Positions 1 through 11,627 of a stretch of 11,627 nucleotides of DNA are shown here, piece after piece; the first letter of the stretch is position 1; every line of letters begins with the position of its first letter. A program made the translations under genes and the position numbers. Origin of the DNA: Methanobacteriota archaeon (GTDB taxonomy: Archaea; Thermoplasmatota; Poseidoniia; Poseidoniales; Poseidoniaceae). The stretch spans positions 1-11,627 of the forward strand of contig JABIGM010000060.1 in NCBI GenBank assembly GCA_018650165.1. Direction: 5' to 3'. Under the pieces are notes generated by a model. The model made no database searches. It was not told where the DNA came from and was given only the letters and a program-made list of their open reading frames with translations.

Positions 1-262
1 TGTCGGTTAATCTAAACCACTCTCTTCTTACTCGGAAACCTGCAAAGTGTTTGTGGAGGTGTCTTTCAACAAGGAATGGAGCCTCTGAATGAAATGAGTG
101 AATGTCGACAATCAATCTCGGGTTTCCAACTTGGTGATCTCTTTGGATTCTGTCTTCTACAGTTCTTTCTTTAGAGACCATACCGATTTTGTAATAATCG
201 CTCTTGCCTGTAATGTCATCAACATCGTTCAAGATGTATACGTGTCCGTCATCTAATTTCAT
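1..262 (-). CDS. T5orf172/MUG113-type GIY-YIG nuclease domain protein (3' end runs off the window)
   Basis: Not in the ORF track. Manual translation from ATG at 262..260 is open to the edge for 87 codons: MKLDDGHVYILNDVDDITGKSDYYKIGMVSKERTVEDRIQRDHQVGNPRLIVDIHSFHSEAPFLVERHLHKHFAGFRVRREWFRLTD. It fits the T5orf172 pattern G.VY..., YKIG, R, Q.GNP, E..LH..F...R...EWF. The ATG overlaps the upstream TGA stop (TGATG). Confidence 0.88.
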   Translation of the reverse strand, partial: MKLDDGHVYILNDVDDITGKSDYYKIGMVSKERTVEDRIQRDHQVGNPRLIVDIHSFHSEAPFLVERHLHKHFAGFRVRREWFRLTD

Positions 263-2577
263 CAGTAATACCTCCTATATCCACAGTTATCTTCATTGTG
301 TGACCCGTTAAGGCACCCCATGCATGGCGTTGCGGTTGGTCTAAACGCTCTTCTATAATTGAACTCTTTCCAAGTTTGATAACACATATTTCGGGGAGGG
401 GGGGCATCGAAGAAAGAGTCGACTTCGTCAACAGGGGGCTCTTCAATTTCCGTTTCAGTGTAATTTTCTCCCGGCGTAATTACATACTGATTGACACTGG
501 AATCTTGCTCGGTATCGAACGGTACAACAATCACATCGCCTACAGTAGAATCTCCTGCAGATGTGTGTGTGCCTAGAAGTAGGCCAGAGTTATTAATTGC
601 TCTCAATTCCTCGAGGCTATACTTCTGTCTGAAAACAGGTACTGCGCCTACACTGAAGAGATTTCCAGAAGTAACAGTTATTTCGACAGCAGTTACTCCG
701 TGGGTCTTAGTCGAGCTTTGGAATAACTGACTTAGATAATTGAATCCAATACTCTTTCTAGGACCTTTTGTGTGCTTTGTTCTTCTTTCAGGCTTTTCAT
801 TTCCATTTCTATCGTAGTACGTCATTGAGATTGTCTTTGGAATTGCTTCATTTGGCATTTCATTTGCCGTAAGTGTAATTCTTGCTTGATTCAAACCCTC
901 CCAATAATCCTCCGAAATCCCTTCAACCTTCAGAGTTCCCGAGAAGTATTCAGAATTTACAGGCGAGAAGAAACCTTGTCCAGGTGCAGACAATACGTCG
1001 GTAGTCTCACCATCATCTACATTCCATGCCAGTTCGGGTTCTACTAATTCCCCTGTCTTGTTGTAATCATAAATTGCCCAAGACATCCATTGATAGATGT
1101 GATTTTCTCTGTCGTTAGCAGATGGTCCTGGTTGCATAATAATCTCCCAGGCCTTTAGATCTAGGCCGTCAATCGGACGGCATGGCTTTAGAATTTCTAA
1201 AAAAGCTTCAACCATCTCTTTGTCAGTAGAATTAATGTTCATTTCCGACATCTTGTATGTCAATGGAAACAAGGCCATAATCGACTTGAACATTACCTTG
1301 TTGAACAGTTTGGAATATAGCGTGCTGGTATCAGAGTTGCCAGACCCTTTACCCCAGCGGTTATTCTCATCACTATCGTGGTATGAAATGTTAGTTTTCG
1401 GGTCAATGTTAGCAGTGATTTTCCAAGCTTGGAAGTAGTTCTGTACTGTTCTGACAAAATCATCTTCAGATTTTGCCAGTTCAGGGAATTGCAAAACCCA
1501 TGGGTTGCAATGGGCTATCCATTCATAGGCATCAATCACCTTCTTGACCTCTGTCTTTCCTTCACCAAAGAATCGTATCATGTCATGTAGTGGACTCGTT
1601 TTGTTGAGGCTCATTCTGGCACCGACTTTGTATGCCATTCTGTTAGCAAATCTTCTCTCATAGGTCTTTGACAATTCTTTGCTGAACGTTTCTATGTTGT
1701 TGATATAATTTTCAGGAACATGTCCAAAGTCCTCGTGACTCAGATGACTGGCTAATTTCAATACATATCTTAGATGCAACTTGTGCAAATCAGTCAAATC
1801 ATTGCTTTGGACATTTATCTCTGCAAAGATTCTGCCCCCTCCGCCTTCGTATTTAGGGTCGACAACTACAAATGGAATTAGCATATTCATAGCATTAGCG
1901 CTGAGCCTTGAAGAACGAATGCGATGCTGACCATCGACTAGATCAATCGGTCTGTAGTCGACTCCCTTACTAAAATCAACATCTTTCAGAGTGTTCTTGA
2001 TATGCTCAATCCTTTGCATATCAATTTCAAGTTTCTTGAAAATACCTTCTCCAACAATCTTAGCAGAACCATCAGCAAGTGAAGACTTAGAGATTTCAAG
2101 TATTACCGGATTAACTATTGTTGGACTTGATGCCAGGAAAGTCTCAATATTACCAATTCTTTCGAATTCCAATGGTCGCTGGTACTGCTCCGTGACATCA
2201 TCATTTAGAGTACGTCTACATATCTCCAAAGAATCGGTTGCAGCGGGTAGTGCTGGCACTCTACAGATAGCATCTGCCATCCCAAGTGAAATCACACCAA
2301 AGTGATGGGTGAGACCTGATTGTTTGAATTCAGTGACTAGAATCTCATGCTTTCCCCAGTTCTCAACGCTCGTGTCATATTCATGACTTGAAGCCCAGTA
2401 GGGATTTACCTTATCCTCTTCCTTAGGTTTCGATTGGACCGCCTTGCTTACTACTCCAAATCGAGCCAGCATATCGGGCATCTGCTGCACTTCGTCTTCT
2501 TTACAGAGGTGCTCTAAGCCCGCTCTGTGGAATTCGCATTTCTCTAGCTTCGTATTTTCAGTATTATGTTCTCTCAT
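262..2577 (-). CDS. Large DGQHR-domain (DndB-like, ParB/Srx fold) protein with C-terminal CCHC zinc knuckle
   Basis: DGQHR at 1921..1935, preceded by YQRPL...RI..I..FL and IVNPVIL and followed by IFAEIN, which are typical DGQHR-family blocks. The ORF track starts at 2625 (787 aa). ATG at 2577 is preferred because it lies 4 nt after the upstream TAG and follows GGACGGT. C-terminal C-x2-C-x4-H-x4-C at 283..324. Confidence 0.85.
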   Translation of the reverse strand: MREHNTENTKLEKCEFHRAGLEHLCKEDEVQQMPDMLARFGVVSKAVQSKPKEEDKVNPYWASSHEYDTSVENWGKHEILVTEFKQSGLTHHFGVISLGMADAICRVPALPAATDSLEICRRTLNDDVTEQYQRPLEFERIGNIETFLASSPTIVNPVILEISKSSLADGSAKIVGEGIFKKLEIDMQRIEHIKNTLKDVDFSKGVDYRPIDLVDGQHRIRSSRLSANAMNMLIPFVVVDPKYEGGGGRIFAEINVQSNDLTDLHKLHLRYVLKLASHLSHEDFGHVPENYINNIETFSKELSKTYERRFANRMAYKVGARMSLNKTSPLHDMIRFFGEGKTEVKKVIDAYEWIAHCNPWVLQFPELAKSEDDFVRTVQNYFQAWKITANIDPKTNISYHDSDENNRWGKGSGNSDTSTLYSKLFNKVMFKSIMALFPLTYKMSEMNINSTDKEMVEAFLEILKPCRPIDGLDLKAWEIIMQPGPSANDRENHIYQWMSWAIYDYNKTGELVEPELAWNVDDGETTDVLSAPGQGFFSPVNSEYFSGTLKVEGISEDYWEGLNQARITLTANEMPNEAIPKTISMTYYDRNGNEKPERRTKHTKGPRKSIGFNYLSQLFQSSTKTHGVTAVEITVTSGNLFSVGAVPVFRQKYSLEELRAINNSGLLLGTHTSAGDSTVGDVIVVPFDTEQDSSVNQYVITPGENYTETEIEEPPVDEVDSFFDAPPPRNMCYQTWKEFNYRRAFRPTATPCMGCLNGSHNEDNCGYRRYY

Positions 2578-2581
2578 ATTA

Positions 2582-3418
2582 CTACCGTCCATTCTGTTTT
2601 CCTGAATTATCCCCATTCTTCTCATAAATTTCCGTACAGTGATTAACTATCGCATTACGCAGTCCCTTCTCGAAAACCCTCACCCATTCTGACCATGTCG
2701 TTAAGGTGTGAGTTGGCAAAATTCCTTTCTCATCGCAATCATAGAATTCAAGAGTTTCTGATACTCTGAAACGATATGGAGCGTGGGAGCAAAGAATGCT
2801 CTGGCTTTCGTTCAACACTTCAGATATTTGCTTGCCCCAACATACGGGAAGGGCCATGAACAGAATATCTCCCTCCATCTTGATAATTGCGTCTCTAAGC
2901 CATCTGGCAGAGATAAAATCCTCTTCTTCGTGGCTATTAGAAATACCTGGAACCGATTCAAACTCTTCATCTTCCCAATCTTCAAGGCCGGCTATTGGTT
3001 CAAAGTCGTGCTCTAAAACGCCATGCCCTAAGTGAATCCAGACGGTCGGGTTATGTCTGCTGGCGTCATGCTCGAAAACATCCTTGATATTCGCTTCGAA
3101 CCTTATTTTCAATTCAGGTATACTTCTATCGCTAAACACTAGGTATGTGTTGAACGCCTTGATTATCTGAGAAAGAGCCCCTATAGCTTCAATTAAACCG
3201 TGCGAATGTGGGTTAGCAATCAAATCATCCATACAATTCCATATCGGTTTTCCTTTGAATGTAGGGCACCCAGTGATCACAAAATCGCCATTGAATTTCC
3301 CCTTCTCTATCATGTCAAACAGATTTCCAGTTACATCAGCAGGTGAGGTAAATATTGTAAATCGGCCAGCTTGCATTCCATTTCTTACTATTTTCTCATC
3401 ATTCTTCAGTTCTATCAT
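2582..3418 (-). CDS. Putative caspase-like (CHAT/peptidase C14 clan) cysteine protease
   Basis: 278 aa with RBS GGAGATGA at 3423..3430. Motifs NPTVWIHLGHG (His132, 3023..3025), FISARWLRDAI and ILFMALPVCWG (Cys193, 2840..2842) match the order and spacing of CHAT motifs P.ILHF.GHG / isa.eL / LVVL.AC.S. The CDS itself is high confidence; the function is inferred. Confidence 0.62.
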   Translation of the reverse strand: MIELKNDEKIVRNGMQAGRFTIFTSPADVTGNLFDMIEKGKFNGDFVITGCPTFKGKPIWNCMDDLIANPHSHGLIEAIGALSQIIKAFNTYLVFSDRSIPELKIRFEANIKDVFEHDASRHNPTVWIHLGHGVLEHDFEPIAGLEDWEDEEFESVPGISNSHEEEDFISARWLRDAIIKMEGDILFMALPVCWGKQISEVLNESQSILCSHAPYRFRVSETLEFYDCDEKGILPTHTLTTWSEWVRVFEKGLRNAIVNHCTEIYEKNGDNSGKQNGR

Positions 3419-3438
3419 TTTTTCATCTCCTTATGTTG

Positions 3439-4236
3439 TTAGTTTCTTTTGACAAGTTGTTGCTTAACGATGTCTCCTGTTTGTAAATTGAAAGCTGTAA
3501 GTTGCGGCTCATTCCCTCCATAGCAGCAAGAATCGATACCTATGGCAGCAGGACGACTATTGAGCAGTTCAACTTCAGATTCCCAAACCTTGGATTGAGG
3601 TAAGCCAAAACCAGGCATTGTAGAGTGTCCAAAGATTACAGTTCGATTCTCATCGACAGGGGTGATAGAATTGTGAAATTCTCCACGTACCCACATCAGA
3701 GTATCAGTGGACTGCAAGTCAAGGTCCCCATCCCAAGGCGAATAACCGGCGTGAACTAACCTGAAATCATCTAGAACGATATGATGAGGCAGTGCGTCTA
3801 GCCATGCCAAATCCTGGCCGGCTCTTTGGCGCAACTCGAAACGGTAGATTCCTCCATCTTGACGTGTAAATTCATCGATATATGATTGAGCAGTTGCTCT
3901 TCCTCCTATGTAGAACCAACTCGATTGTTGTGCATTCATGGTTTCAATATTGTCAGCATCGAAACTCATCAACATCATTTCTTCATGGTTCCCTAGGACA
4001 GAGAATATCTGTGGGTCATCACGGGCGATTTTGATTACTTCACAGGATTTTGGCCCTCGGTCTACAAGGTCGCCAAGAAGTACAACTCGATCTTTAGAAC
4101 CTAGATTTAGCGATTCAAGCAATGCGGTTAGAGTATCAGCATGGCCATGCACATCACCAATGGCCCAAACATTACCTCCCTCGTCTAGAACGGTCTGAAG
4201 TTCTGCCTCAATTTTCTTGTTTCTTCTGCCTTGCAT
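3439..4236 (-). CDS. PPP-family metallophosphoesterase (Ser/Thr protein phosphatase, PphA/lambda-phosphatase/ApaH-like)
   Basis: Complete motif set GDVHG, GDLVDRG, GNHE, VHAG, GHS and IDSCCYGG...LTA. The ORF track starts at 4266. ATG at 4236 is preferred because RBS GGGAGTGA (4241..4248) overlaps the upstream stop. Confidence 0.93.
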   Translation of the reverse strand: MQGRRNKKIEAELQTVLDEGGNVWAIGDVHGHADTLTALLESLNLGSKDRVVLLGDLVDRGPKSCEVIKIARDDPQIFSVLGNHEEMMLMSFDADNIETMNAQQSSWFYIGGRATAQSYIDEFTRQDGGIYRFELRQRAGQDLAWLDALPHHIVLDDFRLVHAGYSPWDGDLDLQSTDTLMWVRGEFHNSITPVDENRTVIFGHSTMPGFGLPQSKVWESEVELLNSRPAAIGIDSCCYGGNEPQLTAFNLQTGDIVKQQLVKRN

Positions 4237-4240
4237 AATA

Positions 4241-4248
4241 TCACTCCC
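4241..4248 (-). promoter_or_regulatory. Ribosome-binding site GGGAGTGA for the phosphoesterase gene
   Basis: GGGAGTGA-TATT-ATG, where the TGA is the stop of the 214-aa gene. Confidence 0.65.
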
Positions 4249-4885
4249 AGCCCTCAATGTTTTCATTTGCTTCTTCTTTTAGCCAAATCATCTTGCTACA
4301 GCAATTAGTGGGAATCAAACGGAAATTCTCAGTTACCAGTACAAGTGTTCCAAATGGGATTTCACCCTTACAACTTGGACATTCATCAAGACATTCCTGA
4401 GCATCGCACAAAGCGATTACTTCTTCTTCTTCGAATCCTTTATTCAGAGCCAAGTGGGGCGGAATAGGTAACTTTTCACCAAGTAGTAACACCTTGTCAG
4501 TTTCCTCTGGACCCCAGTGTAAGTAACCCCAGGCATCGATATTGTCTGGAGTCATCAAACTCATCTTTCTGAATGTCATACGCACCTGTTCAATGGTGTA
4601 TACTTCGTATGGGATGTCATGTAGGTCATTTACTACTTCTTCATCCAGTAGTACATAGAGAGGTTTACCGATGAAATTGTCAACAAAATCACGACGAGCA
4701 GCATGCCTGCGTCCTTTCCACCAGCCTAGTTCGTATTCGATTTCTGCAGCGTCACAAAGTCGTTGGCAAACCGCATTTCGAACTGAACGAGTAGCTTTCT
4801 CAATACTACCTGCCTGTTTGATGATAATTTCATCGTCTATTCTGGCGACGATTCTCCATACCTTGTTCTCACTAATAATTGTCAT
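4241..4885 (-). CDS. Hypothetical protein with C-terminal Cys cluster (possible zinc ribbon)
   Basis: 214 aa with RBS GGAGGA at 4893..4898. Cys at 160, 165, CPSC (169-172) and CC (195-196). First gene after a 127-bp intergenic gap. Confidence 0.75.
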   Translation of the reverse strand: MTIISENKVWRIVARIDDEIIIKQAGSIEKATRSVRNAVCQRLCDAAEIEYELGWWKGRRHAARRDFVDNFIGKPLYVLLDEEVVNDLHDIPYEVYTIEQVRMTFRKMSLMTPDNIDAWGYLHWGPEETDKVLLLGEKLPIPPHLALNKGFEEEEVIALCDAQECLDECPSCKGEIPFGTLVLVTENFRLIPTNCCSKMIWLKEEANENIEGWE

Positions 4886-5012
4886 AATTTAATCCTCCAT
4901 TTTGTTGTTAATATAGATAAAAAATCGCTAAAAGCCCATCAAAACAATTCCTTTCTATCCCTACATAATCTGATGCCAATAGACCGTTATAAACCCGATG
5001 TATTTCCTTCAT
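4886..5012 (-). promoter_or_regulatory. Intergenic region probably carrying the promoter of the left operon
   Basis: The only sizeable gap (127 bp) between 1 and 9184. It has AT-rich TATA-like stretches (TTTTTTATCTATATTAA near 4909..4925 and TTTATAA at 4987..4993) and RBS GGAGGA. The exact promoter cannot be pinned down. Confidence 0.35.
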
Positions 5013-6302
5013 TTATCCGAGCATAATATCGATACTTTCGCCCCACTTTGCCGGCTTAACTCCACCTTCAATGACTCCCCAAATAACAGGGTAATGTGGT
5101 TCGTTTTTCGGGGCGCCTCCAAAACCATCAGTGAGATATAGAACTACTTCGGGTGCTTCATCATCTTCACTGATCAAATCGAATACGGGGCAGAAATCAG
5201 TTCCACCACCTCCCAATAGTTGGAATTTTTCGGGAATGAATGGATTATCCATATCATAGATGACATCCTCATTAATATTCCAATCACACTGAATCAATCG
5301 AAGTTGATAGCCACCAAACGAGTTTAGGATTCCATAAACTTCGCTAACGAATGTTTTGACAATTTCACCAGTGGTTGAACCACTAGTGTCGATGGCGATT
5401 ACAATATTGAGTTGTTTTTCCTTCCTTATCGAAGGCAAATACATCTTCTTGTAGACGTGTCTTCGGTTAGGCGGCAACCATTTTCTAACGCTATTAAACA
5501 TCGGAGTAAGAAATTGTCTAAGAATCTCTTTCCAATGCATTTTCGATTCAAATAATCCATCGAGATGAGTCTTGTAATTGCCCAGGTCTATTCCACGATT
5601 ACTACATTGTTGAGCAGCAGCCATCATTTTGTTCTTCCATTCTTTCCAGACGTCGTCACTTCTTCTAGGGCGAAAGTCCGAATCTACTTTGGCTGTAAGG
5701 TTTCCTTCAGCATCTTCTTCAACTGTCGACCATCCATCAGTGCCATCATTTCCAGCCTCTGAATCGCCATCTTCACCAGGGACTGGAGAGCCGTGGTCAT
5801 CCAAGCATTCTCCGCGCATTTCGATTGTACCTTTTTTGATTAAATCGAAAACAGTTTCAGCAGATTCACCTTTGTATGGCTGATATAGAATTGCGCCCTC
5901 TGGAATTTTGAATCCATCATCCTCGAGTAAGGAGTTTACTTCGTGATCAATAGCATGGTTCCACATTTTGTGGTCTTCCATTCTCCCGTGCTCTCGCATG
6001 AAGTGGGACAATCCACAATGCCAAATCTCGTGTGCTAGGATAGTCAATCGTTCATCCTCTGATAAGGAATTAAGAAAATGAGGGTTGAAGAAAATCCTCT
6101 TGCCATCTGTGGAAGCTGTAGCGCACCTATGGTCAACAACAGGAATCAATTCAAGGTTCATCGCTAATGTACCGATGAATGGTCTCCAACCGAGTAACTT
6201 CATTCGGTCATTTGTCCAATGCTCAAGCGAAACAAGTTTAGCTCCTTCATCCTCGTCAGAAGGAGGGGTAAAACTAACGCTTTTTTCATTGATTTCAGAC
6301 AT
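5013..6302 (-). CDS. Metallopeptidase-like (HExxH) plus vWA domain protein, DUF2201_N/DUF2201 type
   Basis: TASTDG..IFFNP.F, HEIWH (6018..6032), WN.A.D..VN and LDDH in the N-terminal part. vWA MIDAS motifs DTSGS (5376..5390), GGGGTDF and YLTDG in the C-terminal part. Adjacent to a MoxR-type ATPase. RBS GAGGTGA. Confidence 0.92.
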   Translation of the reverse strand: MSEINEKSVSFTPPSDEDEGAKLVSLEHWTNDRMKLLGWRPFIGTLAMNLELIPVVDHRCATASTDGKRIFFNPHFLNSLSEDERLTILAHEIWHCGLSHFMREHGRMEDHKMWNHAIDHEVNSLLEDDGFKIPEGAILYQPYKGESAETVFDLIKKGTIEMRGECLDDHGSPVPGEDGDSEAGNDGTDGWSTVEEDAEGNLTAKVDSDFRPRRSDDVWKEWKNKMMAAAQQCSNRGIDLGNYKTHLDGLFESKMHWKEILRQFLTPMFNSVRKWLPPNRRHVYKKMYLPSIRKEKQLNIVIAIDTSGSTTGEIVKTFVSEVYGILNSFGGYQLRLIQCDWNINEDVIYDMDNPFIPEKFQLLGGGGTDFCPVFDLISEDDEAPEVVLYLTDGFGGAPKNEPHYPVIWGVIEGGVKPAKWGESIDIMLG

Positions 6303-6307
6303 TTATA

Positions 6308-6314
6308 TCACCTC
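6308..6314 (-). promoter_or_regulatory. Ribosome-binding site GAGGTGA for the vWA gene, overlapping the MoxR stop codon
   Basis: GAGGTGA-TATAA-ATG on the - strand. Part of the motif is formed by the MoxR TGA stop (6313..6315), consistent with translational coupling. Confidence 0.75.
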
Positions 6315-7401
6315 AAACCACTATACGATTTTCTAATTCTTCATGGCGTGGATGGTCAAATAGAGCCACTAGGAACTCGTCCTTTCCATCAGAATCCATA
6401 ACCAGTGTAATGTCATGATACAATAGTTGGACCCAGTCATTTGGGAACTTTAGCATTACATCGAAAAATCCATTCAAAAGATTCTCTGGTTCTTCGACTT
6501 GACGCATATTATGGACAATAGCCGATAGCATTGCATAGCGTTGGTCAGGACGTTTTGGAATAGTTGCCTTGATTTCCCCCGCTAACATCTTGCTAACGTC
6601 GGGAATCTTACCACTCCATTCGAGGAATGCCATGAATTCAACCGCAACACCTTCTCCAACCAAACCCTCTACGATGATATGCATTAGGTCGTTATCGAGG
6701 TTTTTGTCAGTAGCTAAATCAAGTTCCATAGCAACTCTTTCCCAACTTCTAGGGCTCGGCCAACCTCGCTCTTTATTCCCTTCCATCGAGAATAATTTTT
6801 GAGGTAAATATCGAATAAATCCGGTTACACTTGGATTAAGATTGTTGATTAAAGCCCAATCGAGCCAACTTGCAGTATTGGCACCGACTTCAAGGTGACA
6901 GAATCGATTTGCAAGCGCACTTGACATTGTACGTGCAACCGCTCCGTCTCCGGTACGATTTCCAGCTGCTACGATGTACCAGCCATCGGGAACTTGGTAG
7001 AGTTGACCGAGTCTACGGTCGAGAATGAATTCGTATGCAGCAACTTGTAGTGTGCTATCTGCGGCAGTAATCTCATCGAAGAGGATGATGCCTTTTTCTG
7101 GAGTACCTTCTACTCCTGCTCTCGGCCATTCCGAGGAAACAATCCAATCGATACCTTGCTTGTCGTCTCTTGGAACAGGAAGCCCACGGATGTCCACGGG
7201 TTCTCTTTGTGCCAATCGGACATCAATAAATCCGATATCGTTCTCCTTGCAGAGATTTCGAATGAAAGTTGACTTTCCGATCCCAGGGGGACCCCAAATC
7301 ATCAATGGGGGAACCAACTCTGCTTTCTTTGGATTCTCCCAAAGAATGTCTAACTGGTGTTGTAGCAGTTGCTTTGCTTTTGATATACTTGTCATGTTCA
7401 T
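6313..7401 (-). CDS. MoxR-like AAA+ ATPase (AAA_5 type)
   Basis: Walker A GPPGIGKS, helix-2 region IDVRLAQREPVDIRGLP, Walker B ILFDE, sensor-1 AAGN, Arg finger ALANRF and PSPRSWE. RBS GGAGA at 7409..7413. Confidence 0.95.
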   Translation of the reverse strand: MNMTSISKAKQLLQHQLDILWENPKKAELVPPLMIWGPPGIGKSTFIRNLCKENDIGFIDVRLAQREPVDIRGLPVPRDDKQGIDWIVSSEWPRAGVEGTPEKGIILFDEITAADSTLQVAAYEFILDRRLGQLYQVPDGWYIVAAGNRTGDGAVARTMSSALANRFCHLEVGANTASWLDWALINNLNPSVTGFIRYLPQKLFSMEGNKERGWPSPRSWERVAMELDLATDKNLDNDLMHIIVEGLVGEGVAVEFMAFLEWSGKIPDVSKMLAGEIKATIPKRPDQRYAMLSAIVHNMRQVEEPENLLNGFFDVMLKFPNDWVQLLYHDITLVMDSDGKDEFLVALFDHPRHEELENRIVV

Positions 7402-7414
7402 ATTTATTTCTCCA

Positions 7415-9184
7415 TTATTTTTTGTATTGTTTACTCCAATTTGTTAGGTATGGCCATTCAGGCTTTACAGCCTTGCCATTCTTGAATGCCCTATTACCTG
7501 AGATTGAAATTGCATTCATCATTGATGATTCTGAAACTGTAAATTCGTTATCAGAAGCTATACGCTTCAATGCGATTCTTGCTTTAGGTGAATTGACCTG
7601 GTCGATAATACCAACCAGTAACGCGGCTTTAATCCATGCAGAGGTACGCATATCCATGATTCCATCAATCAACTGTTGAATGATAGATTGATTAGCAACA
7701 CGAGATATGCCAAGATGGTAAATAGTGAATTCACAACAAAATGGGTCAGTATTGATTGTAGGGTTAGTGTAAAGGCTTTCAGCCAAATTGGTCAGTTTTC
7801 GTTCAGCATCGCTATTTCTGCCAACCGTATTGGCTGCACTCAAAGTAGAGATCAGAATATTTCGAACTACTGGGTTTTCACCTAGATGGCGTCTGCTAGA
7901 GTACCGCCTTTGTGGGACTAAATTTTTGTCGTGCATTCCAATTAATTCAACTCCTAAGTTTGTATTGAGCCATATCTCAAGATCAACTCTGCCAAATGGC
8001 ATTACTGAGTTGTCAGGGATTTCCCAGTCATCGGAATCACCAGAATACAATTTGTTCCATGTTCCTCCTTGATTTCCACCATTAACAGAACTTGTAATCA
8101 ATTTAGGCATGCAGGTATTCATTTCAGAAATGTGGTTTCGTACTTGGATTATTGGTTTGGAAGCAAATCCACGAGAAATCAAAGAGGCAAGAATTCTCAA
8201 CGCTTTGTATTGGTCGAACAGCGAAAGGTTGTTTTGACACCAATTAGCAAAGGCATCAAATCGCTTAACAGGCTCTTCTTCAATTAGGTGAATCAGTCTT
8301 GAGATTTCAATGCCTAAAGATAGGTCGTTATCATCTAAATCAAATACAGAAGTAAATTCACAGACGCCCCCAGGGCCGTTATAGGTGTAAGGCATTACCG
8401 TAACCCCTCCCAAATCATCACAGGTGATTGTATCATTTGCAGTTAGGTGAGCATTGAAGTGAGGAATCTGTAGCAAAGCCTCTACATCGTTATACCATTC
8501 GGGAACTTTATGCCAAAATCCACCAATTGACAAAGCATTCTTTTTGCGAGGCTTTGGTTGGATGTTTAGACGGTCACCAAAACCGATAATCGTATCAATG
8601 GCTGGACACTTCATCAGCGAACAAGTCAAACTCCTTCTTCGAATGTTCAAGCTTCTCAGAGCGAGGCCTTTGTTAATCACAATATTATTGATGATTCTTT
8701 TACCACTCACTTCAATGGATTGTAAGGACCTGTCTCCGACAAGGGAAATATGAGACCACTCACCGTCAAGTTTTAGATCCGTAATCTCTGTTGTTTTGAG
8801 CATTAACGCATCCATGTCGCCACATTGAATTGTAGGGTCTCGAGTGATAATAGCGCCCCATATATTGCCAAGTGGTAGAGTTGGATTGGATGCATATCGA
8901 TGTAAATTGTAAAAATTGTTCCTGTCTTTGACACGCACTTCTTCGAACGCACCTCGAATTTTTATCGTTTGATGCGGATAGCTGTTGAAAGCAATCACTG
9001 CACCTGGGCTTTTGATATGGATAACCTCTAGTGAATCAATTTCATCTAGTGTCAGAATACTTCCGTATTCCACTTTGTTGATATGGATGATCTTGACATC
9101 GTTACCGACGAAACGAATATTTTCTTCCATATGGTAGATTTCGATCTCAGGCTCTTCAGGAATCGCTTTGTAAATTGTTGTCAT
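7415..9184 (-). CDS. Hypothetical protein with LRR-like beta-solenoid N-terminus and helical C-terminus
   Basis: 589-aa ORF with RBS AGAGGTGG at 9191..9198, ending 13 bp before the MoxR start. Recurring (L/I)xx(L/I)x(L/I/V) units every ~9-11 aa in residues ~30-200. Confidence 0.72.
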   Translation of the reverse strand: MTTIYKAIPEEPEIEIYHMEENIRFVGNDVKIIHINKVEYGSILTLDEIDSLEVIHIKSPGAVIAFNSYPHQTIKIRGAFEEVRVKDRNNFYNLHRYASNPTLPLGNIWGAIITRDPTIQCGDMDALMLKTTEITDLKLDGEWSHISLVGDRSLQSIEVSGKRIINNIVINKGLALRSLNIRRRSLTCSLMKCPAIDTIIGFGDRLNIQPKPRKKNALSIGGFWHKVPEWYNDVEALLQIPHFNAHLTANDTITCDDLGGVTVMPYTYNGPGGVCEFTSVFDLDDNDLSLGIEISRLIHLIEEEPVKRFDAFANWCQNNLSLFDQYKALRILASLISRGFASKPIIQVRNHISEMNTCMPKLITSSVNGGNQGGTWNKLYSGDSDDWEIPDNSVMPFGRVDLEIWLNTNLGVELIGMHDKNLVPQRRYSSRRHLGENPVVRNILISTLSAANTVGRNSDAERKLTNLAESLYTNPTINTDPFCCEFTIYHLGISRVANQSIIQQLIDGIMDMRTSAWIKAALLVGIIDQVNSPKARIALKRIASDNEFTVSESSMMNAISISGNRAFKNGKAVKPEWPYLTNWSKQYKK

Positions 9185-9443
9185 CCTAATCCACCTCTAT
9201 ATTGTCTACCAAAATTAATACTGATTATTTACCATCTAATCCAAATAAAAATCGGAAACAATCATCAAATCCTTAACCAAAAGGGGCATCTGCTCTTTCA
9301 GAGTTCTGCCCACCTTAGTAACATCCCTTGGGACCTTCTTAAGCCAGTCGGTTTGTGAAGGGATTAACAGATAAAATCGTAAAATCTTCAATAGATTTCA
9401 CGAGCTGATTTTGTACCATTCCACATTATGCTACCGGAAGAAA

Positions 9444-10328
9444 TCAGGTTTCGTACATTGAGAGCCTGGGCGTCTCAATTGCGCCAATCATAGAGTTTGT
9501 ATTGGAATTAGTATTGATGGCAACAATGAATTGCAAACTCTCTTCTTTACAGATATTTCTAATGAGATCGATTATGGTAATCGCCTCAAAATCATTAAGT
9601 GAATCAACATTGAATGGTGAAAAAATAGGCGTACACATTCCAAACACTCGCTTTTTCATAACAGCTTGAGCCAAATTAGCCAATAGCCGCAGCGGAGACG
9701 GCGCACCATTCCTAGCAGAATATCTTCTATTGCCAAAAGCATCGACATCGCCTCGTGTCGACCATCTTCCATCATAATCGATATCTAATCTAGAATCTAC
9801 AAATCCAACCATTCTAGCCCAATTATTTGAAAGGGCAACCAAGCTTTTCCGAGTGTGATTATCTATGGGCTTGAAGATAAGTGAATTATTGTTAAACAAC
9901 CCGCCATCATCAATTACGATCGGCTTGCCAAATTTACTTAACATCTGGATTACATCATGGTTTCTGTAGACAATACTATTCCCTATTTTTTGTAACCGTG
10001 CTTCAGTAGAATAGGGGCCAATGAAGCATCTTTGTAGCAAAAATTCACTATCATCAGTAACGAATCTAATACTACATTGGGTTTTGCGGTCATTTCCAAT
10101 TAGATGCTTTTTTGTTAACCGAACGTTTTGTTTTGACAAGATTTCAGGTGAATGATTATTGGTTGCAAACATTGCGCGTATAAGCGATAGAAAGTCGCCA
10201 ATTTCAAAATAATATTCTGCACTTATAATGGTGCAATTTTCTTCAAATGAAGCAGAAAATGGATACCACATGTGGCCAAAACCATCATGAGAAATAGAGA
10301 CTATTTTTCTTATAGTTTCGATAGCCAA
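9444..10328 (-). CDS. Degenerate (P-loop-less) ABC-ATPase paralog of the upstream gene
   Basis: 294 aa with TTG start, overlapping the upstream stop by 19 bp. It aligns by eye to 10310..11296 at the N-terminus, middle and C-terminus, but Walker A reads AEYYFEIGD and the Walker B DE is absent. The exact start is uncertain. Confidence 0.7.
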   Translation of the reverse strand: MAIETIRKIVSISHDGFGHMWYPFSASFEENCTIISAEYYFEIGDFLSLIRAMFATNNHSPEILSKQNVRLTKKHLIGNDRKTQCSIRFVTDDSEFLLQRCFIGPYSTEARLQKIGNSIVYRNHDVIQMLSKFGKPIVIDDGGLFNNNSLIFKPIDNHTRKSLVALSNNWARMVGFVDSRLDIDYDGRWSTRGDVDAFGNRRYSARNGAPSPLRLLANLAQAVMKKRVFGMCTPIFSPFNVDSLNDFEAITIIDLIRNICKEESLQFIVAINTNSNTNSMIGAIETPRLSMYET

Positions 10329-11296
10329 GCCCCCAATTTACCAAATGATGAAAACGGAGGATTGGAAACCACTAGGTGCCTATGGGTACGGTACACCTTA
10401 GGAACCCTAGGTTGCTTGATTGTAATTGGATTAATTCTACCATTGCTAAATCGCGAAGTCAAAATAAATTGGCATTTGTATCGATTTGCAAGAATTCTAA
10501 TCCCATCAAATAACACTTGGACGCCACTTCGACTAAGCCCAGTTTCCATTTCGTCGATTAGTATCACACGCGAATTATCCTCTTCATCAATTGCCATAGC
10601 GTGCATCAGAAATTTCGCCAGAGTTAGTACAATACTACTATCCCCTAAGGCAAGAGAACTGAGAGGCACAATCGTACCATTTCGATTCTCTATGACATAG
10701 GAATTGCCTCTTACCGATAGTTTTGATATTTTGCTACCCGCGGCCAATAGAAGTAAATTCAAGGCATCAATATACTCTGCTGATGGCCGAATATAGGATA
10801 AGGAATCATCAATTTCGGAAAAATGTAATTTTTTATTGTATGGATTAAACTTGGTGTAATCTTTGTATGGTCGCCAAAACGTATCAAATAATGTAACCGG
10901 CTTTAATTTTTTAAGATAAGCAAAGCCCTCGCTATCGCGTAAGAATTCCGCCTTATCTCCTTCGCCGATGTATAGGTGTAGATCTCTCGTAGTATTGCCT
11001 GAAATCACTCTTCGAAGGTAATGTATTTTACCGCCAGCGACAAATTTCAATTCAATTAATGATTCAGTGTAGTCATGACTTTCAACAAGCCATTTTCCAG
11101 GCCACTCTCGGCCAATGTCTGTGTCCAAAGCCTGTTTAATTAATACGACCAAAGAGGTCTTCCCACCCGAATTTTTACCAACAATTGTGCTAATCGCTTC
11201 ATCAAATTCAAAATTATGTAAACCCTCAAACGCCATAAAATTTCGACATGCCGCAGAAATTATTTTTGTGACGGGTATGTTTGGTTCTCTATTCAT
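10310..11296 (-). CDS. SMC/Rad50/RecF-like ABC ATPase head without coiled coil (AAA_15/AAA_21-like)
   Basis: N-terminal I.S..CRNF..F, Walker A GKNSGGKTS, signature-like LSSLALGD, Walker B/D-loop VILIDEMETGLS and QFILTS. Only 328 aa, so there is no room for long coiled coils. Confidence 0.88.
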   Translation of the reverse strand: MNREPNIPVTKIISAACRNFMAFEGLHNFEFDEAISTIVGKNSGGKTSLVVLIKQALDTDIGREWPGKWLVESHDYTESLIELKFVAGGKIHYLRRVISGNTTRDLHLYIGEGDKAEFLRDSEGFAYLKKLKPVTLFDTFWRPYKDYTKFNPYNKKLHFSEIDDSLSYIRPSAEYIDALNLLLLAAGSKISKLSVRGNSYVIENRNGTIVPLSSLALGDSSIVLTLAKFLMHAMAIDEEDNSRVILIDEMETGLSRSGVQVLFDGIRILANRYKCQFILTSRFSNGRINPITIKQPRVPKVYRTHRHLVVSNPPFSSFGKLGAWLSKL

Positions 11297-11301
11297 TTAT
11301 A

Positions 11302-11348
11302 CCCCTTCGAGAGTATTTTCCCCTCGAGGTATTGAAAAACCCCTCGGA
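11302..11348. repeat. Three imperfect tandem direct repeats, core CCCCT(T)CG
   Basis: + strand copies at 11302 (ccccttcgagagtatt), 11320 (cccctcgaggtatt) and 11340 (cccctcgga), spaced 18 and 20 nt apart. They lie immediately upstream of the ABC ATPase start. Confidence 0.65.
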
Positions 11349-11364
11349 AATCTCGGCTTAACAT

Positions 11365-11381
11365 TACAGTAACACACTGTA
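11365..11381. terminator. Short inverted repeat just downstream of the pgk stop (possible terminator/processing hairpin)
   Basis: TACAGT-aacac-ACTGTA, a 6-bp stem with 5-nt loop, 3 nt past the pgk TAA. The stem is weak and has no clear U-tract. Confidence 0.25.
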
Positions 11382-11384
11382 GGT

Positions 11385-11627
11385 TTATTGGTGGTCTAAA
11401 GGCTTAGAAATAGAGAAGCGAAATTGTCTTGCAGACTCTTCGAGAGAAGCTAGGCCTGGCAGGTTTCTTCCAGCAAGAAGTTCTAGACTTGCGCCGCCAC
11501 CTGTTGAAACGTGCCCCATCTTGTCGATTAATCCACGCTGATTGACTAGAGTTGCAGTGTGACCTCCGCCCATTACGGCATACCCTTCACTCTCCGCACA
11601 TGCGTTTAGCATCTCGACAGTTCCTAA
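11385..11627 (-). CDS. pgk: Phosphoglycerate kinase, C-terminal end (5' part outside the window)
   Basis: The frame is open to the edge (LGTVEMLNACAESEGYAVMGGGHT...KMGHVSTGGGASLELLAGRNLPGLASL). HVSTGGGASLE is the PGK C-terminal signature. GGGH instead of bacterial GGGD is the archaeal-type variant. Confidence 0.95.
   Translation of the reverse strand, partial: LGTVEMLNACAESEGYAVMGGGHTATLVNQRGLIDKMGHVSTGGGASLELLAGRNLPGLASLEESARQFRFSISKPLDHQ

What the first reader, a model, noticed from the sequence alone, without database searches (positions are those of the whole stretch)
2582..3418. Cryptic stand-alone caspase/CHAT-like protease with intact His-Cys dyad
Seen: ANIKDVFEHDASRHNPTVWIHLGHG, then FISARWLRDAII, then ILFMALPVCWGKQISEVL..SILCSHA. 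These reproduce the CHAT order: helix, strand-GHG, 'isa.eL' helix, strand-xC, helix, strand. His132 and Cys193 are 61 residues apart, and no TPR or sensor domain is attached. Known: the caspase-hemoglobinase fold uses this dyad, and such proteases trigger cell death in type III-E CRISPR and bacterial gasdermin systems. Inference: the signalling protease of this locus, probably annotated as hypothetical.
Basis: partly seen in the sequence, partly recalled or inferred. Interest (0 to 1): 0.85.

Follow-up and report, generated by a model that had tools for sequence, protein, structure and literature searches.

The report
Minimal CHAT-like caspase of marine archaea
A small unannotated protein of the abundant marine archaea Poseidoniales is predicted to be a stripped-down caspase-type cysteine protease with an invariant His-Cys pair. 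It sits in a swappable gene cassette beside nuclease-like genes, so it may belong to an undescribed archaeal anti-virus module, but no activity has been shown.

Summary
The ORF at 2582-3418 (minus strand, 278 aa) is real, has a GGAG ribosome-binding site and is under purifying selection (dN/dS 0.16-0.22). No Pfam, NCBIfam, PHROG or PADLOC model matches it.

It founds a family seen so far only in Poseidoniales (Marine Group II) genomes and marine metagenomes. It occurs in 16 of 401 species genomes. In 109 family sequences, some only about 17% identical, His132, Gly133 and Cys193 are invariant.

An AlphaFold2 model (pLDDT 86.7) is closest to the CHAT domain of SAVED-CHAT (Z 8.7). Of the 32 best solved chains, 26 are clan CD peptidases. 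A weak profile-profile match (E 0.035, above 30 shuffles) places His132 and Cys193 on the CHAT dyad.

The caspase/CHAT-like reading and the stand-alone architecture are therefore supported. "The signalling protease of this locus" is only partly supported. A genome of the same genus has the same MoxR-vWA-phosphatase locus without this gene, and DNA homology breaks at the gene's start. The gene travels with the downstream DGQHR and GIY-YIG genes. In 14 of 18 metagenome loci of its clade with a visible upstream side, a NERD gene lies within two genes upstream; it is missing here. Proteolysis, substrate and trigger are untested.

The parts
2582..3418 (-). Gene for the 278-aa minimal CHAT-like (clan CD fold) protein P0001, stop codon included
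   Evidence: ORF and translation; homologues; AF2 model with pLDDT 86.7; fold matches; dN/dS 0.16-0.22
3427..3430 (-). GGAG Shine-Dalgarno-like motif 8 nt upstream of the ATG
   Evidence: Sequence read directly
3023..3025 (-). Codon of His132 (motif W-I-H-L-G-H-G), the candidate catalytic histidine directly after strand 126-129
   Evidence: invariant in 109/109 sequences; aligned to the CHAT catalytic His by hhalign
2840..2842 (-). Codon of Cys193 (motif L-P-V-C-W-G), the candidate nucleophile directly after strand 185-189 and before helix 195-205
   Evidence: invariant in 109/109 sequences; aligned to the CHAT catalytic Cys by hhalign
2939..3019 (-). Acidic beta-hairpin insertion between His and Cys (residues 134-160, ending in P-G-I-S-N). 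It is shorter in distant family members. Ser160 is nearly invariant
   Evidence: Secondary structure of the model; alignments; Ser160 in 107/109 sequences
3415..3433 (.). Left border of the caspase-like/DGQHR/GIY-YIG block. Homology to the G380 locus, which lacks the gene, stops at 3415. Homology to the closest cassette relative L066, which has NERD upstream instead of PPP, starts at 3433
   Evidence: blastn of the window against L065 and L066
262..2577 (-). Downstream, tightly coupled gene for a 771-aa DGQHR (ParB/DndB-like) protein with a C-terminal CCHC zinc knuckle. It follows the caspase-like gene in at least 12 loci of its clade
   Evidence: TIGR03187 at 3.8e-8, below the cut-off; alignment A5; neighbourhoods
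2..262 (-). Start of a GIY-YIG (T5orf172/MUG113) gene, cut by the contig end. It is the third gene of the block and is 354 aa long in relatives
   Evidence: 77-98% identity to the full-length genes in L006 and L066; Pfam PF13455 and PF10544 on the L006 protein

Best explanation
P0001 is most likely an active, cytoplasmic, stand-alone cysteine peptidase of the caspase-hemoglobinase fold (clan CD), nearest in shape to CHAT domains. His132 (in an H-G motif after one core strand) and Cys193 (after a later core strand) would form the catalytic dyad.

It belongs to a previously undescribed family restricted to Poseidoniales. The window's copy lies in the 'island' clade of that family. That clade sits in variable, defence-like regions. 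A NERD nuclease-like gene is usually upstream. Downstream is either a DGQHR plus GIY-YIG pair, as here, or an SbcCD-like metallophosphoesterase plus SMC-like ATPase pair.

Inferred mechanism, not shown: the protease is kept silent until a neighbouring nucleic-acid-sensing partner is triggered, for example by a virus. It then cleaves either a partner, to switch it on or off, or many cell proteins, to abort infection. In this genome the block has recombined in behind the MoxR-vWA-P4-PPP genes and lacks the NERD gene.

Shown here: the gene, its conservation, the predicted fold, the residue positions and the neighbourhood pattern. Inferred: catalysis, regulation and the defence role.
For: Conservation and selection
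- His132, Gly133 and Cys193 are invariant in 109/109 sequences, some only about 17% identical.
- dN/dS is 0.16-0.22.

Fold
- The AF2 model has pLDDT 86.7 and pTM 0.84, and all five models agree.
- By VIA-align the best chain is SAVED-CHAT 8tl0_A (Z 8.7, rmsd 3.9 A, 140 residues). Next come DdvA CHAT (7.3), GPI8 (7.2) and caspases-9/-3/-8 (6.4-6.6). 26 of the top 32 rows are clan CD peptidases.
- The top four Foldseek hits are 8tl0 chains, with probability 0.99-1.00 and E 1.3e-3 to 3.7e-3.
- The Atlas's own ESMFold model and my first AF2 model also land on CHAT, Peptidase_C14 and C13.

Dyad position
- hhalign of A4 against an 11-sequence CHAT alignment scores 22.0 (E 0.035). The maximum over 30 column-shuffled controls is 16.7. 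The alignment puts His132 and Cys193 on the CHAT His and Cys.
- The H-C spacing of 61 lies between SAVED-CHAT H375/C422 (47) and PCaspase H79/C146 (67).

Context
- Distribution is patchy: 16/401 species.
- NERD lies within two genes upstream in 14 of 18 metagenome island-clade loci with a visible upstream side. DGQHR is downstream in at least 12 loci. The SbcCD-like pair is downstream in 6.
- Neighbours weakly match defence models: the NERD region of MkoA and PglW, LmuB and PDC-S57.
- There is a presence/absence difference against G380, with the breakpoint at the gene start.
Against: - No biochemical evidence exists.
- No sequence model of any peptidase family matches, even at E<=10.
- The structural scores are moderate (Z 8.7, TM 0.33-0.50), and the fold is a common three-layer alpha/beta sandwich. 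vWA and flavodoxin-like chains also appear at Z 5-6.
- The distance between His132 and Cys193 could not be measured.
- More distant family members lie next to housekeeping genes (TruD, purA, uppS, MscS). A defence role cannot hold for the whole family and may not hold here.
- Here the usual NERD partner is missing. A related DGQHR gene exists in G380 without the protease.
Confidence: 0.55

Rival explanations
1. It is a caspase-fold cysteine protease with a housekeeping or regulatory job, for example processing particular cytoplasmic proteins. It is not functionally linked to its neighbours, and its place in the island is incidental.
For: Outside the island clade the gene lies beside TruD, purA plus a WD40 protein, uppS/MscS, TPR proteins and S8 subtilases. 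No single partner is conserved family-wide. G380 keeps the rest of the locus without it.
Against: It is present in only 16/401 species genomes, and in only one of the 27 other genomes of its genus, which is unusual for a housekeeping function. In the island clade it is tightly coupled (overlaps or gaps of 4-30 nt) to NERD upstream and to DGQHR or SbcCD-like genes downstream in many independent loci.
Confidence: 0.2
2. It uses the His-Cys pair for a non-proteolytic or non-hydrolytic reaction. Examples are a transamidase or ligase reaction (as in GPI8 and legumain-type ligases), or removal of a modification from a protein or nucleic acid.
For: GPI8 transamidase (Z 7.2) and the asparaginyl ligase OaAEP1 (Z 6.2) rank among the top structural matches. 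The family has its own conserved motifs that no peptidase family shares: V-I-T-G, P-G-I-S-N-G and an acidic hairpin.
Against: The best match, and the only sequence-level signal, is to CHAT peptidases. Transamidases of this fold act on secretory-pathway substrates, whereas P0001 has no hydrophobic N-terminus.
Confidence: 0.12
3. It is not a caspase-fold enzyme. It is a generic Rossmann-like or vWA-like alpha/beta protein in which His129, His132 and Cys193 bind a metal, or it is an inactive scaffold.
For: His129 is nearly invariant too (108/109), giving an H-x2-H...C pattern. vWA, Rpn10 and flavodoxin chains appear at Z 5-6. The Atlas single-sequence model is of low confidence (pLDDT 0.48).
Against: Clan CD chains fill 26 of the 32 best rows and the top 12. 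His is followed by an invariant Gly, as in caspases and CHAT. His129 is replaced by Phe in the most distant member, while His132 and Cys193 stay. Many CHAT domains also have a second His just upstream of the catalytic one (CHAT alignment).
Confidence: 0.08

Closest known systems
CHAT domain of SAVED-CHAT (Haliangium ochraceum type III-B CRISPR; PDB 8tl0; dyad H375/C422)
   Same: It is the best structural match (Z 8.7; Foldseek probability 0.99-1.00). The order of elements is the same: strand, H-G, helix, strand, Cys, helix. Profile alignment puts His132 and Cys193 on the CHAT dyad. It works in prokaryotic immunity (bioRxiv 10.1101/2023.06.23.546230).
   Different: SAVED-CHAT is 478 aa and has a cA3-sensing SAVED domain that drives filament formation. 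P0001 is 278 aa with no sensor. It has a 27-residue acidic hairpin between His and Cys. The Pfam CHAT model does not match it. No CRISPR or cyclase genes are nearby.
TPR-CHAT / Csx29 of type III-E CRISPR (Craspase; PDB 7y83, 7zoq, 7y9x) and the DdvA anti-sigma CHAT (8rot)
   Same: Same fold family (Z 5.1-7.3). These are proteases switched on by a nucleic-acid-sensing partner.
   Different: They are large multidomain proteins (640-900 aa) bound to a Cas effector or to the membrane. No such partner is present here.
[quoted passage not shown]
   Same: They have a His-Cys dyad and sit in two-gene or few-gene defence operons. Once triggered they cleave many proteins after Arg (bioRxiv 10.1101/2023.06.23.546230 and 10.1101/2024.10.24.620036). 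This is the working model I infer for P0001.
   Different: Those match Peptidase_C14. The Thoeris enzyme has a ligand-binding C-terminal domain. Their partners are TIR or SAVED-CHAT, not NERD, DGQHR or GIY-YIG. They are bacterial, whereas this protein is archaeal.
Orthocaspase MaOC1 of Microcystis, encoded next to a toxin-antitoxin pair
   Same: A prokaryotic caspase homologue whose substrate is the product of an adjacent gene (PMC7935541, abstract seen). This is a precedent for a neighbour-as-substrate arrangement.
   Different: MaOC1 is a canonical C14 p20 domain protein. No such cleavage has been tested here.
Short bacterial CHAT-like proteins (Atlas clusters of about 190-220 aa, some carrying PF20347 DUF6642 or PF12770)
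   Same: They are similar in size and stand alone. They are among the nearest clusters by language-model features (scores 0.88-0.91).
   Different: The scores are at lead level only. The Pfam scan of P0001 and 22 relatives listed only four unrelated families, so neither DUF6642 nor CHAT matched. I found no paper on DUF6642.

Membership tests
Clan CD / caspase-hemoglobinase fold | Three-layer alpha/beta/alpha sandwich with a mainly parallel central sheet, closest to solved clan CD peptidases | tested here: met
   AF2 model with pLDDT 86.7. 26 of the 32 best chains, including the top 12, are clan CD; the best is 8tl0_A at Z 8.7. The Foldseek top 4 are 8tl0 chains. This is a predicted, not a solved, structure.
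Clan CD / caspase-hemoglobinase fold | Catalytic His, followed by Gly, at the C-terminal end of one core strand, and catalytic Cys at the end of the next core strand, in the order His then Cys | tested here: met
   Strand 126-129 is followed by G-H132-G133. Strand 185-189 is followed by L-P-V-C193. H, G and C are invariant in 109/109 sequences.
Clan CD / caspase-hemoglobinase fold | His and Cys side chains within about 4-6 A of each other in a substrate groove | not testable with these tools
   Model coordinates are not returned (one search shows no model file). Only the secondary structure and alignment ranges are available.
Clan CD / caspase-hemoglobinase fold | Cys-dependent peptidase activity | not testable with these tools
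   Needs a biochemical assay.
CHAT domain (Pfam PF12770) | Match to the family HMM above the gathering score | tested here: not met
   No Pfam match for P0001 at E<=0.1. None of 23 family members matches CHAT at E<=10. A profile search of PDB sequences gave no CHAT chain.
CHAT domain (Pfam PF12770) | Profile-profile similarity that includes both catalytic motifs | tested here: inconclusive
   hhalign score 22.0, E 0.035, 44 columns from G-H-G to the Cys motif. This is above all 30 column-shuffled controls (maximum 16.7), but the hhalign probability is about 1%. With the smaller alignment A2 the P-value was 0.12.
CHAT domain (Pfam PF12770) | Usual fusion to sensor or repeat domains (TPR, SAVED, STAND NTPase and others) | tested here: not met
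   The protein is 278 aa with no extra domain, and no longer relatives were found. Canonical CHAT proteins in Poseidoniales lie in open frames of 1174-1745 aa, and the one read (L015) carries a P-loop NTPase region after the CHAT domain.
Peptidase_C14 (caspase/metacaspase/orthocaspase, PF00656) | Match to the family HMM; p20 motifs S-H-G and Q/D-x-C-x-G | tested here: not met
   No match at E<=10 in 23 members. The motif around Cys is L-P-x-C rather than the C14 pattern. Structural similarity is only at Z 5.4-6.6.
Class I glutamine amidotransferase-like (Cys-His-Glu triad) | Nucleophile Cys followed about 80-100 residues later by an invariant His-x-Glu | tested here: not met
   The C-x-G-x-Q look of the Cys motif raised this idea. 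However, no His after Cys193 is invariant: H212 is replaced by Y, F, S or G. The invariant His precedes the Cys.
Known anti-phage systems in PADLOC-DB | Match of the protein to a PADLOC model | tested here: not met
   No PADLOC family matches P0001 at E<=0.1. Neighbours give only weak domain-level matches.

The most novel reading that the evidence does not exclude
The NERD protein and the minimal caspase-like protease form the core of an undescribed anti-virus system of Marine Group II archaea. Often a divergently transcribed 800-1000-aa protein of no known family accompanies them. A nuclease-like sensor would switch on a sensor-less caspase, which then activates or releases interchangeable downstream effector modules (DGQHR-zinc knuckle plus GIY-YIG, or SbcCD-like). 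This would be a proteolytic immune cascade in archaea with parts unlike any characterised system.
Probability: 0.2. Interest if true: 0.75.

Novelty: new variant of a known kind. Interest (0 to 1): 0.5.

Why it matters
Caspase-type proteases have recently been shown to be executioners or switches of bacterial immunity (Craspase, SAVED-CHAT/PCaspase, type IV Thoeris, gasdermin activation). Almost nothing is known about such proteases in archaea, or about immunity in Poseidoniales, which are among the most abundant archaea of the surface ocean and are uncultured.

This family is invisible to Pfam, NCBIfam, PHROGs and PADLOC. It is the smallest CHAT-like form I could find and has no sensor domain. 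In one clade it is wedged between nuclease-like genes in swappable cassettes. If it is active, it gives a compact model for how a sensor-less caspase is controlled. It also gives an entry point to the virus-defence repertoire of Marine Group II archaea. The strictly invariant His-Gly and Cys residues make direct mutational tests simple.

Tried and rejected
- Sequence libraries. Pfam, PADLOC, NCBIfam and PHROGs give nothing for P0001. A Pfam scan of 23 members at E<=10 gives only four unrelated single hits. A profile search of PDB sequences gives only a chance UvrC hit at E 1.7.
- Bridging sequences. A last word-indexed search with the divergent alignment A3 found only more Poseidoniales hypothetical proteins, none with a Pfam domain.
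- Viral origin. No relative was found in IMG/VR contigs. A pgk gene flanks the locus, so this is a chromosomal island, not a virus.
- Complex prediction of P0002 (residues 1-715) with P0001 gave no verdict. This is neither support for nor evidence against binding.
- Dyad geometry.
- Is P4 (window 4241-4885) a short NERD stand-in? hhalign of P4 against the NERD partners gave E 0.41, so the idea was rejected.
- GATase-1-like triad: rejected (see Membership tests).
- A search for short CHAT proteins, seeded with a Poseidoniales CHAT domain, gave only 4 hits. The CHAT alignment was therefore built from 9 genome loci plus 2 of those hits.
- Literature. No papers were found for 'DUF6642', for Poseidoniales with caspase, or for DGQHR with caspase. 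The search for NERD domain with caspase and defense found one paper, and it is not on this family.

Full report
**Where the window lies.** The window is the whole of contig C56 of a 1.75-Mb, 80%-complete MAG. Earlier notes of this scan and the record titles of related contigs place it in Poseidoniales (Marine Group II archaea). All genes lie on the minus strand. In transcription order they are:
- a fragment of pgk (94.7% identical over 75 aa to a 427-aa PGK gene in L065);
- an ABC-type ATPase (P0009) and a related protein (P0008);
- a 589-aa protein of no known family (P0007);
- a MoxR-like AAA+ ATPase (P0006);
- a DUF2201 metallopeptidase-vWA protein (P0005);
- a 214-aa protein (P0004, called 'P4' here);
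- a PPP-type phosphatase (P0003);
- the target (P0001, 2582-3418);
- a DGQHR protein (P0002);
- the first 87 codons of a GIY-YIG gene, cut by the contig end.

P0001 is 278 aa and contains the quoted motifs. His132 is codon 3023-3025 and Cys193 is codon 2840-2842. A GGAG precedes the ATG. The next gene most likely starts 4 nt after the stop, as in relatives. dN/dS against two relatives is 0.22 and 0.16.

**The family.** No Pfam, PADLOC, NCBIfam or PHROG model matches P0001. Searches found 25 close homologues. An exhaustive search of 1.8 billion representatives gave 19 hits and no longer, fused forms. A profile search added 10 more distant proteins of about 220-260 aa. In reference genomes the family occurs in Poseidoniales MAGs only. 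One short contig is labelled Rhodobiaceae, but it is the same contig as one of a genome that the genome search places in the window's own family. It was found in 16 of 401 species genomes of the order and in one of the 27 other genomes of its genus. A metagenome scan gave 59 further loci, all from marine samples. Only six columns are invariant in the 53-sequence alignment A4: G50, P124, H132, G133, L190 and C193. In 109 sequences of at least 180 aa, H132, G133, P124 and C193 are kept without exception. His129 is lost once. The few deviants in the first alignment come from frameshifted, low-coverage contigs.

**Fold.**
- With the 26-sequence alignment, AF2 gave pLDDT 74. With 53 sequences it gave pLDDT 86.7 and pTM 0.84, and all five models agreed.
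- The element order is strand 45-49, helix 73-96, strand 104-107, strand 126-129, a hairpin at 133-141 and 153-160, a short strand 168-170, helix 171-180, strand 185-189, helix 195-205, strand 208-212 and helix 240-269.
- Against 48,161 representative solved chains, the best is the CHAT domain of SAVED-CHAT (8tl0_A: Z 8.7, rmsd 3.9 A, 140 residues, 15% identity). Then come DdvA CHAT (7.3), GPI8 (7.2), caspases-9, -3 and -8 (6.4-6.6), metacaspase, legumain and gingipain. 26 of the top 32 rows are clan CD peptidases. vWA-like chains start at rank 13.
- The Foldseek top four are 8tl0 chains (E 1.3e-3 to 3.7e-3, probability 0.99-1.00).
- These scores are moderate, but the ranking is consistent across methods.

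Three indirect tests agree.
- His132 (followed by an invariant Gly) and Cys193 each sit just after a core strand, in the order His then Cys, as in clan CD.
- I built a CHAT alignment from nine archaeal genome loci and two proteins. hhalign of A4 against it gives a local alignment from G-H-G to the Cys motif. It puts His132 on the CHAT catalytic His and Cys193 on the CHAT Cys. The score is 22.0 (E 0.035), against a maximum of 16.7 in 30 column-shuffled controls. The smaller alignment gave the same register over 206 columns but P 0.12.
- The aligned ranges to 8tl0_A (model 43-252, chain 305-469) are compatible with H132 matching H375 and C193 matching C422, the proven dyad of that enzyme.

By sequence the protein is not a member of PF12770 or PF00656. 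I treat it as a new family of the clan.

**Neighbourhood.** No partner is conserved family-wide. A tree separates an 'island clade' (support 100/97 by IQ-TREE and 0.99 by FastTree). It contains P0001 and 44 other sequences.
- Upstream, island clade. Among the metagenome loci of this clade with a visible upstream side, a NERD-domain gene lies within two genes upstream in 14 of 18. Often a small ORF and a divergently transcribed 800-1000-aa protein of no known family precede it.
- Downstream, island clade. The gene is followed by the DGQHR protein, then a 354-aa GIY-YIG protein where the contig reaches that far, in at least 12 loci. It is followed by a metallophosphoesterase plus an SMC/LmuB-like ATPase in 6 loci. 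In some loci nothing related follows.
- Window-type arrangement. The order MoxR, vWA, P4, (PPP), protease, DGQHR recurs in two metagenome loci. Their protease is only about 45% identical to P0001 (L083, L084).
- P4. A relative of the C-terminal half of P4 lies directly upstream of the protease gene in two other loci (L075, L081).
- Outside the island clade. The gene lies beside TruD, purA plus a WD40 protein, uppS/MscS, TPR proteins or S8 subtilases.

**A natural deletion test.** Contig L065 of G380, a genome of the same genus, is syntenic with the whole window. It carries pgk, the ABC pair, P7, MoxR (89% identity), vWA (81%), P4 (77%), PPP (80%) and a DGQHR gene (43%), but it has no caspase-like gene and no remnant of one. 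DNA homology stops at window 3415. Conversely, the closest relative of the cassette (L066: protease 87%, DGQHR 89%, GIY-YIG 98%) has a NERD gene upstream, and its homology to the window starts at 3433. The gene is therefore the first gene of a block that has recombined in behind the phosphatase gene. The MoxR-vWA-PPP part does not need it, and a DGQHR gene can exist without it. L067 has a DGQHR 92% identical to the window's but a protease only 61% identical, which suggests further shuffling inside the block. G000 has no canonical CHAT or C14 gene, and its only NERD gene is an unrelated one on another contig.

**Interpretation.** The functional claim is an inference. [quoted passage not shown] A nucleic-acid-sensing neighbour would switch it on, and it would act on a neighbour or on bulk protein. 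The patchy distribution, the cassette behaviour and the defence-like neighbours favour a conflict role for the island clade. The housekeeping contexts of distant members, the absence of NERD here and the lack of any assay argue for caution. I found no paper on this family.

**Verdict.** This is a real, conserved, previously unannotated family of minimal CHAT-like clan CD proteins in Marine Group II archaea. It is a new variant of a known kind. Interest is moderate (0.5), because the fold and dyad are well supported but the role is open.

Noticed in passing
L065 (G380:C72:1-12702) versus window 262-11627: A genome of the same genus carries the whole locus in the same order (MoxR 89%, vWA 81%, P4 77%, PPP 80% identical). 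It lacks the caspase-like gene, and its DGQHR allele is only 43% identical. The 3' part of the island is a replaceable cassette.
   Followed up: yes
L005 4040-5284; L066 1-672; L069 3586-4794; L074, L078-L082, L085, L088-L093, L095: A NERD-domain protein of 340-420 aa is the usual upstream neighbour of island-clade caspase-like genes, often with overlapping or nearly abutting stop and start codons. It weakly matches the NERD region of MkoA (Mokosh) and PglW (BREX). It is absent from the window.
   Followed up: partly
L005 187-3180 (-); L069 526-2979 (-); L074, L091, L093, L099-L103: A divergently transcribed 800-1000-aa protein with no Pfam or PADLOC match recurs next to the NERD/caspase-like pair. 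It also recurs next to a NERD-less subclade, in the order large protein, 190-aa ORF, caspase-like gene, 211-aa ORF.
   Followed up: no
window 283-324 (C-terminus of P0002): The C-x2-C-x4-H-x4-C zinc knuckle at the end of the DGQHR protein is conserved in the three full-length relatives (L066, L067, L006). It lies after an acidic, Pro-rich linker.
   Followed up: partly
window 2-262; L006 2964-4028: The truncated last ORF is the start of a 354-aa GIY-YIG protein (Pfam MUG113/T5orf172; weak PADLOC PDC-S57). A homologous 351-354-aa GIY-YIG gene also lies divergently next to distant caspase-like genes (about 27% identity) in L113, L114 and L116.
   Followed up: partly
window 4241-4885 (P0004): Relatives of the C-terminal, Cys-rich half of this 214-aa protein lie directly upstream of caspase-like genes in L075 (65% identity) and L081 (35%). 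It could therefore be linked to the protease. It has no detectable similarity to NERD.
   Followed up: partly
L067 (also held as L076) versus the window: Mosaic cassette: the DGQHR is 92% identical to the window's, but the adjacent caspase-like protein is only 61% identical. This suggests recombination between the two genes.
   Followed up: no
L015, L016, L017 (G056, G186, G146): Canonical CHAT domains (PF12770) occur in only 3 of 201 Poseidoniales genomes sampled, in open frames of 1174-1745 aa. In L015 the N-terminal CHAT domain is followed by a P-loop (STAND-like) NTPase region.
   Followed up: no
L008 / L041 (contig CALDQY010000104.1, 2753 bp): This contig is titled 'uncultured Rhodobiaceae bacterium' in its record. 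It belongs to a genome (G122) that the genome search lists in the same family as the window's genome. The record label is probably wrong.
   Followed up: partly
window 9444-11296 (P0008, P0009): An ABC/SMC-type ATPase (AAA_15; weak AriA, AbiLi and GajA matches) overlaps a following 294-aa protein by 19 nt. Both are conserved in G380 (45% and 57% identity).
   Followed up: no
L013 / L014 / L131: In a distant subfamily (225 aa) the caspase-like gene lies between purA and a 464-470-aa WD40 protein, whose start overlaps its stop by about 20 nt. This is a possible different partner.
   Followed up: no
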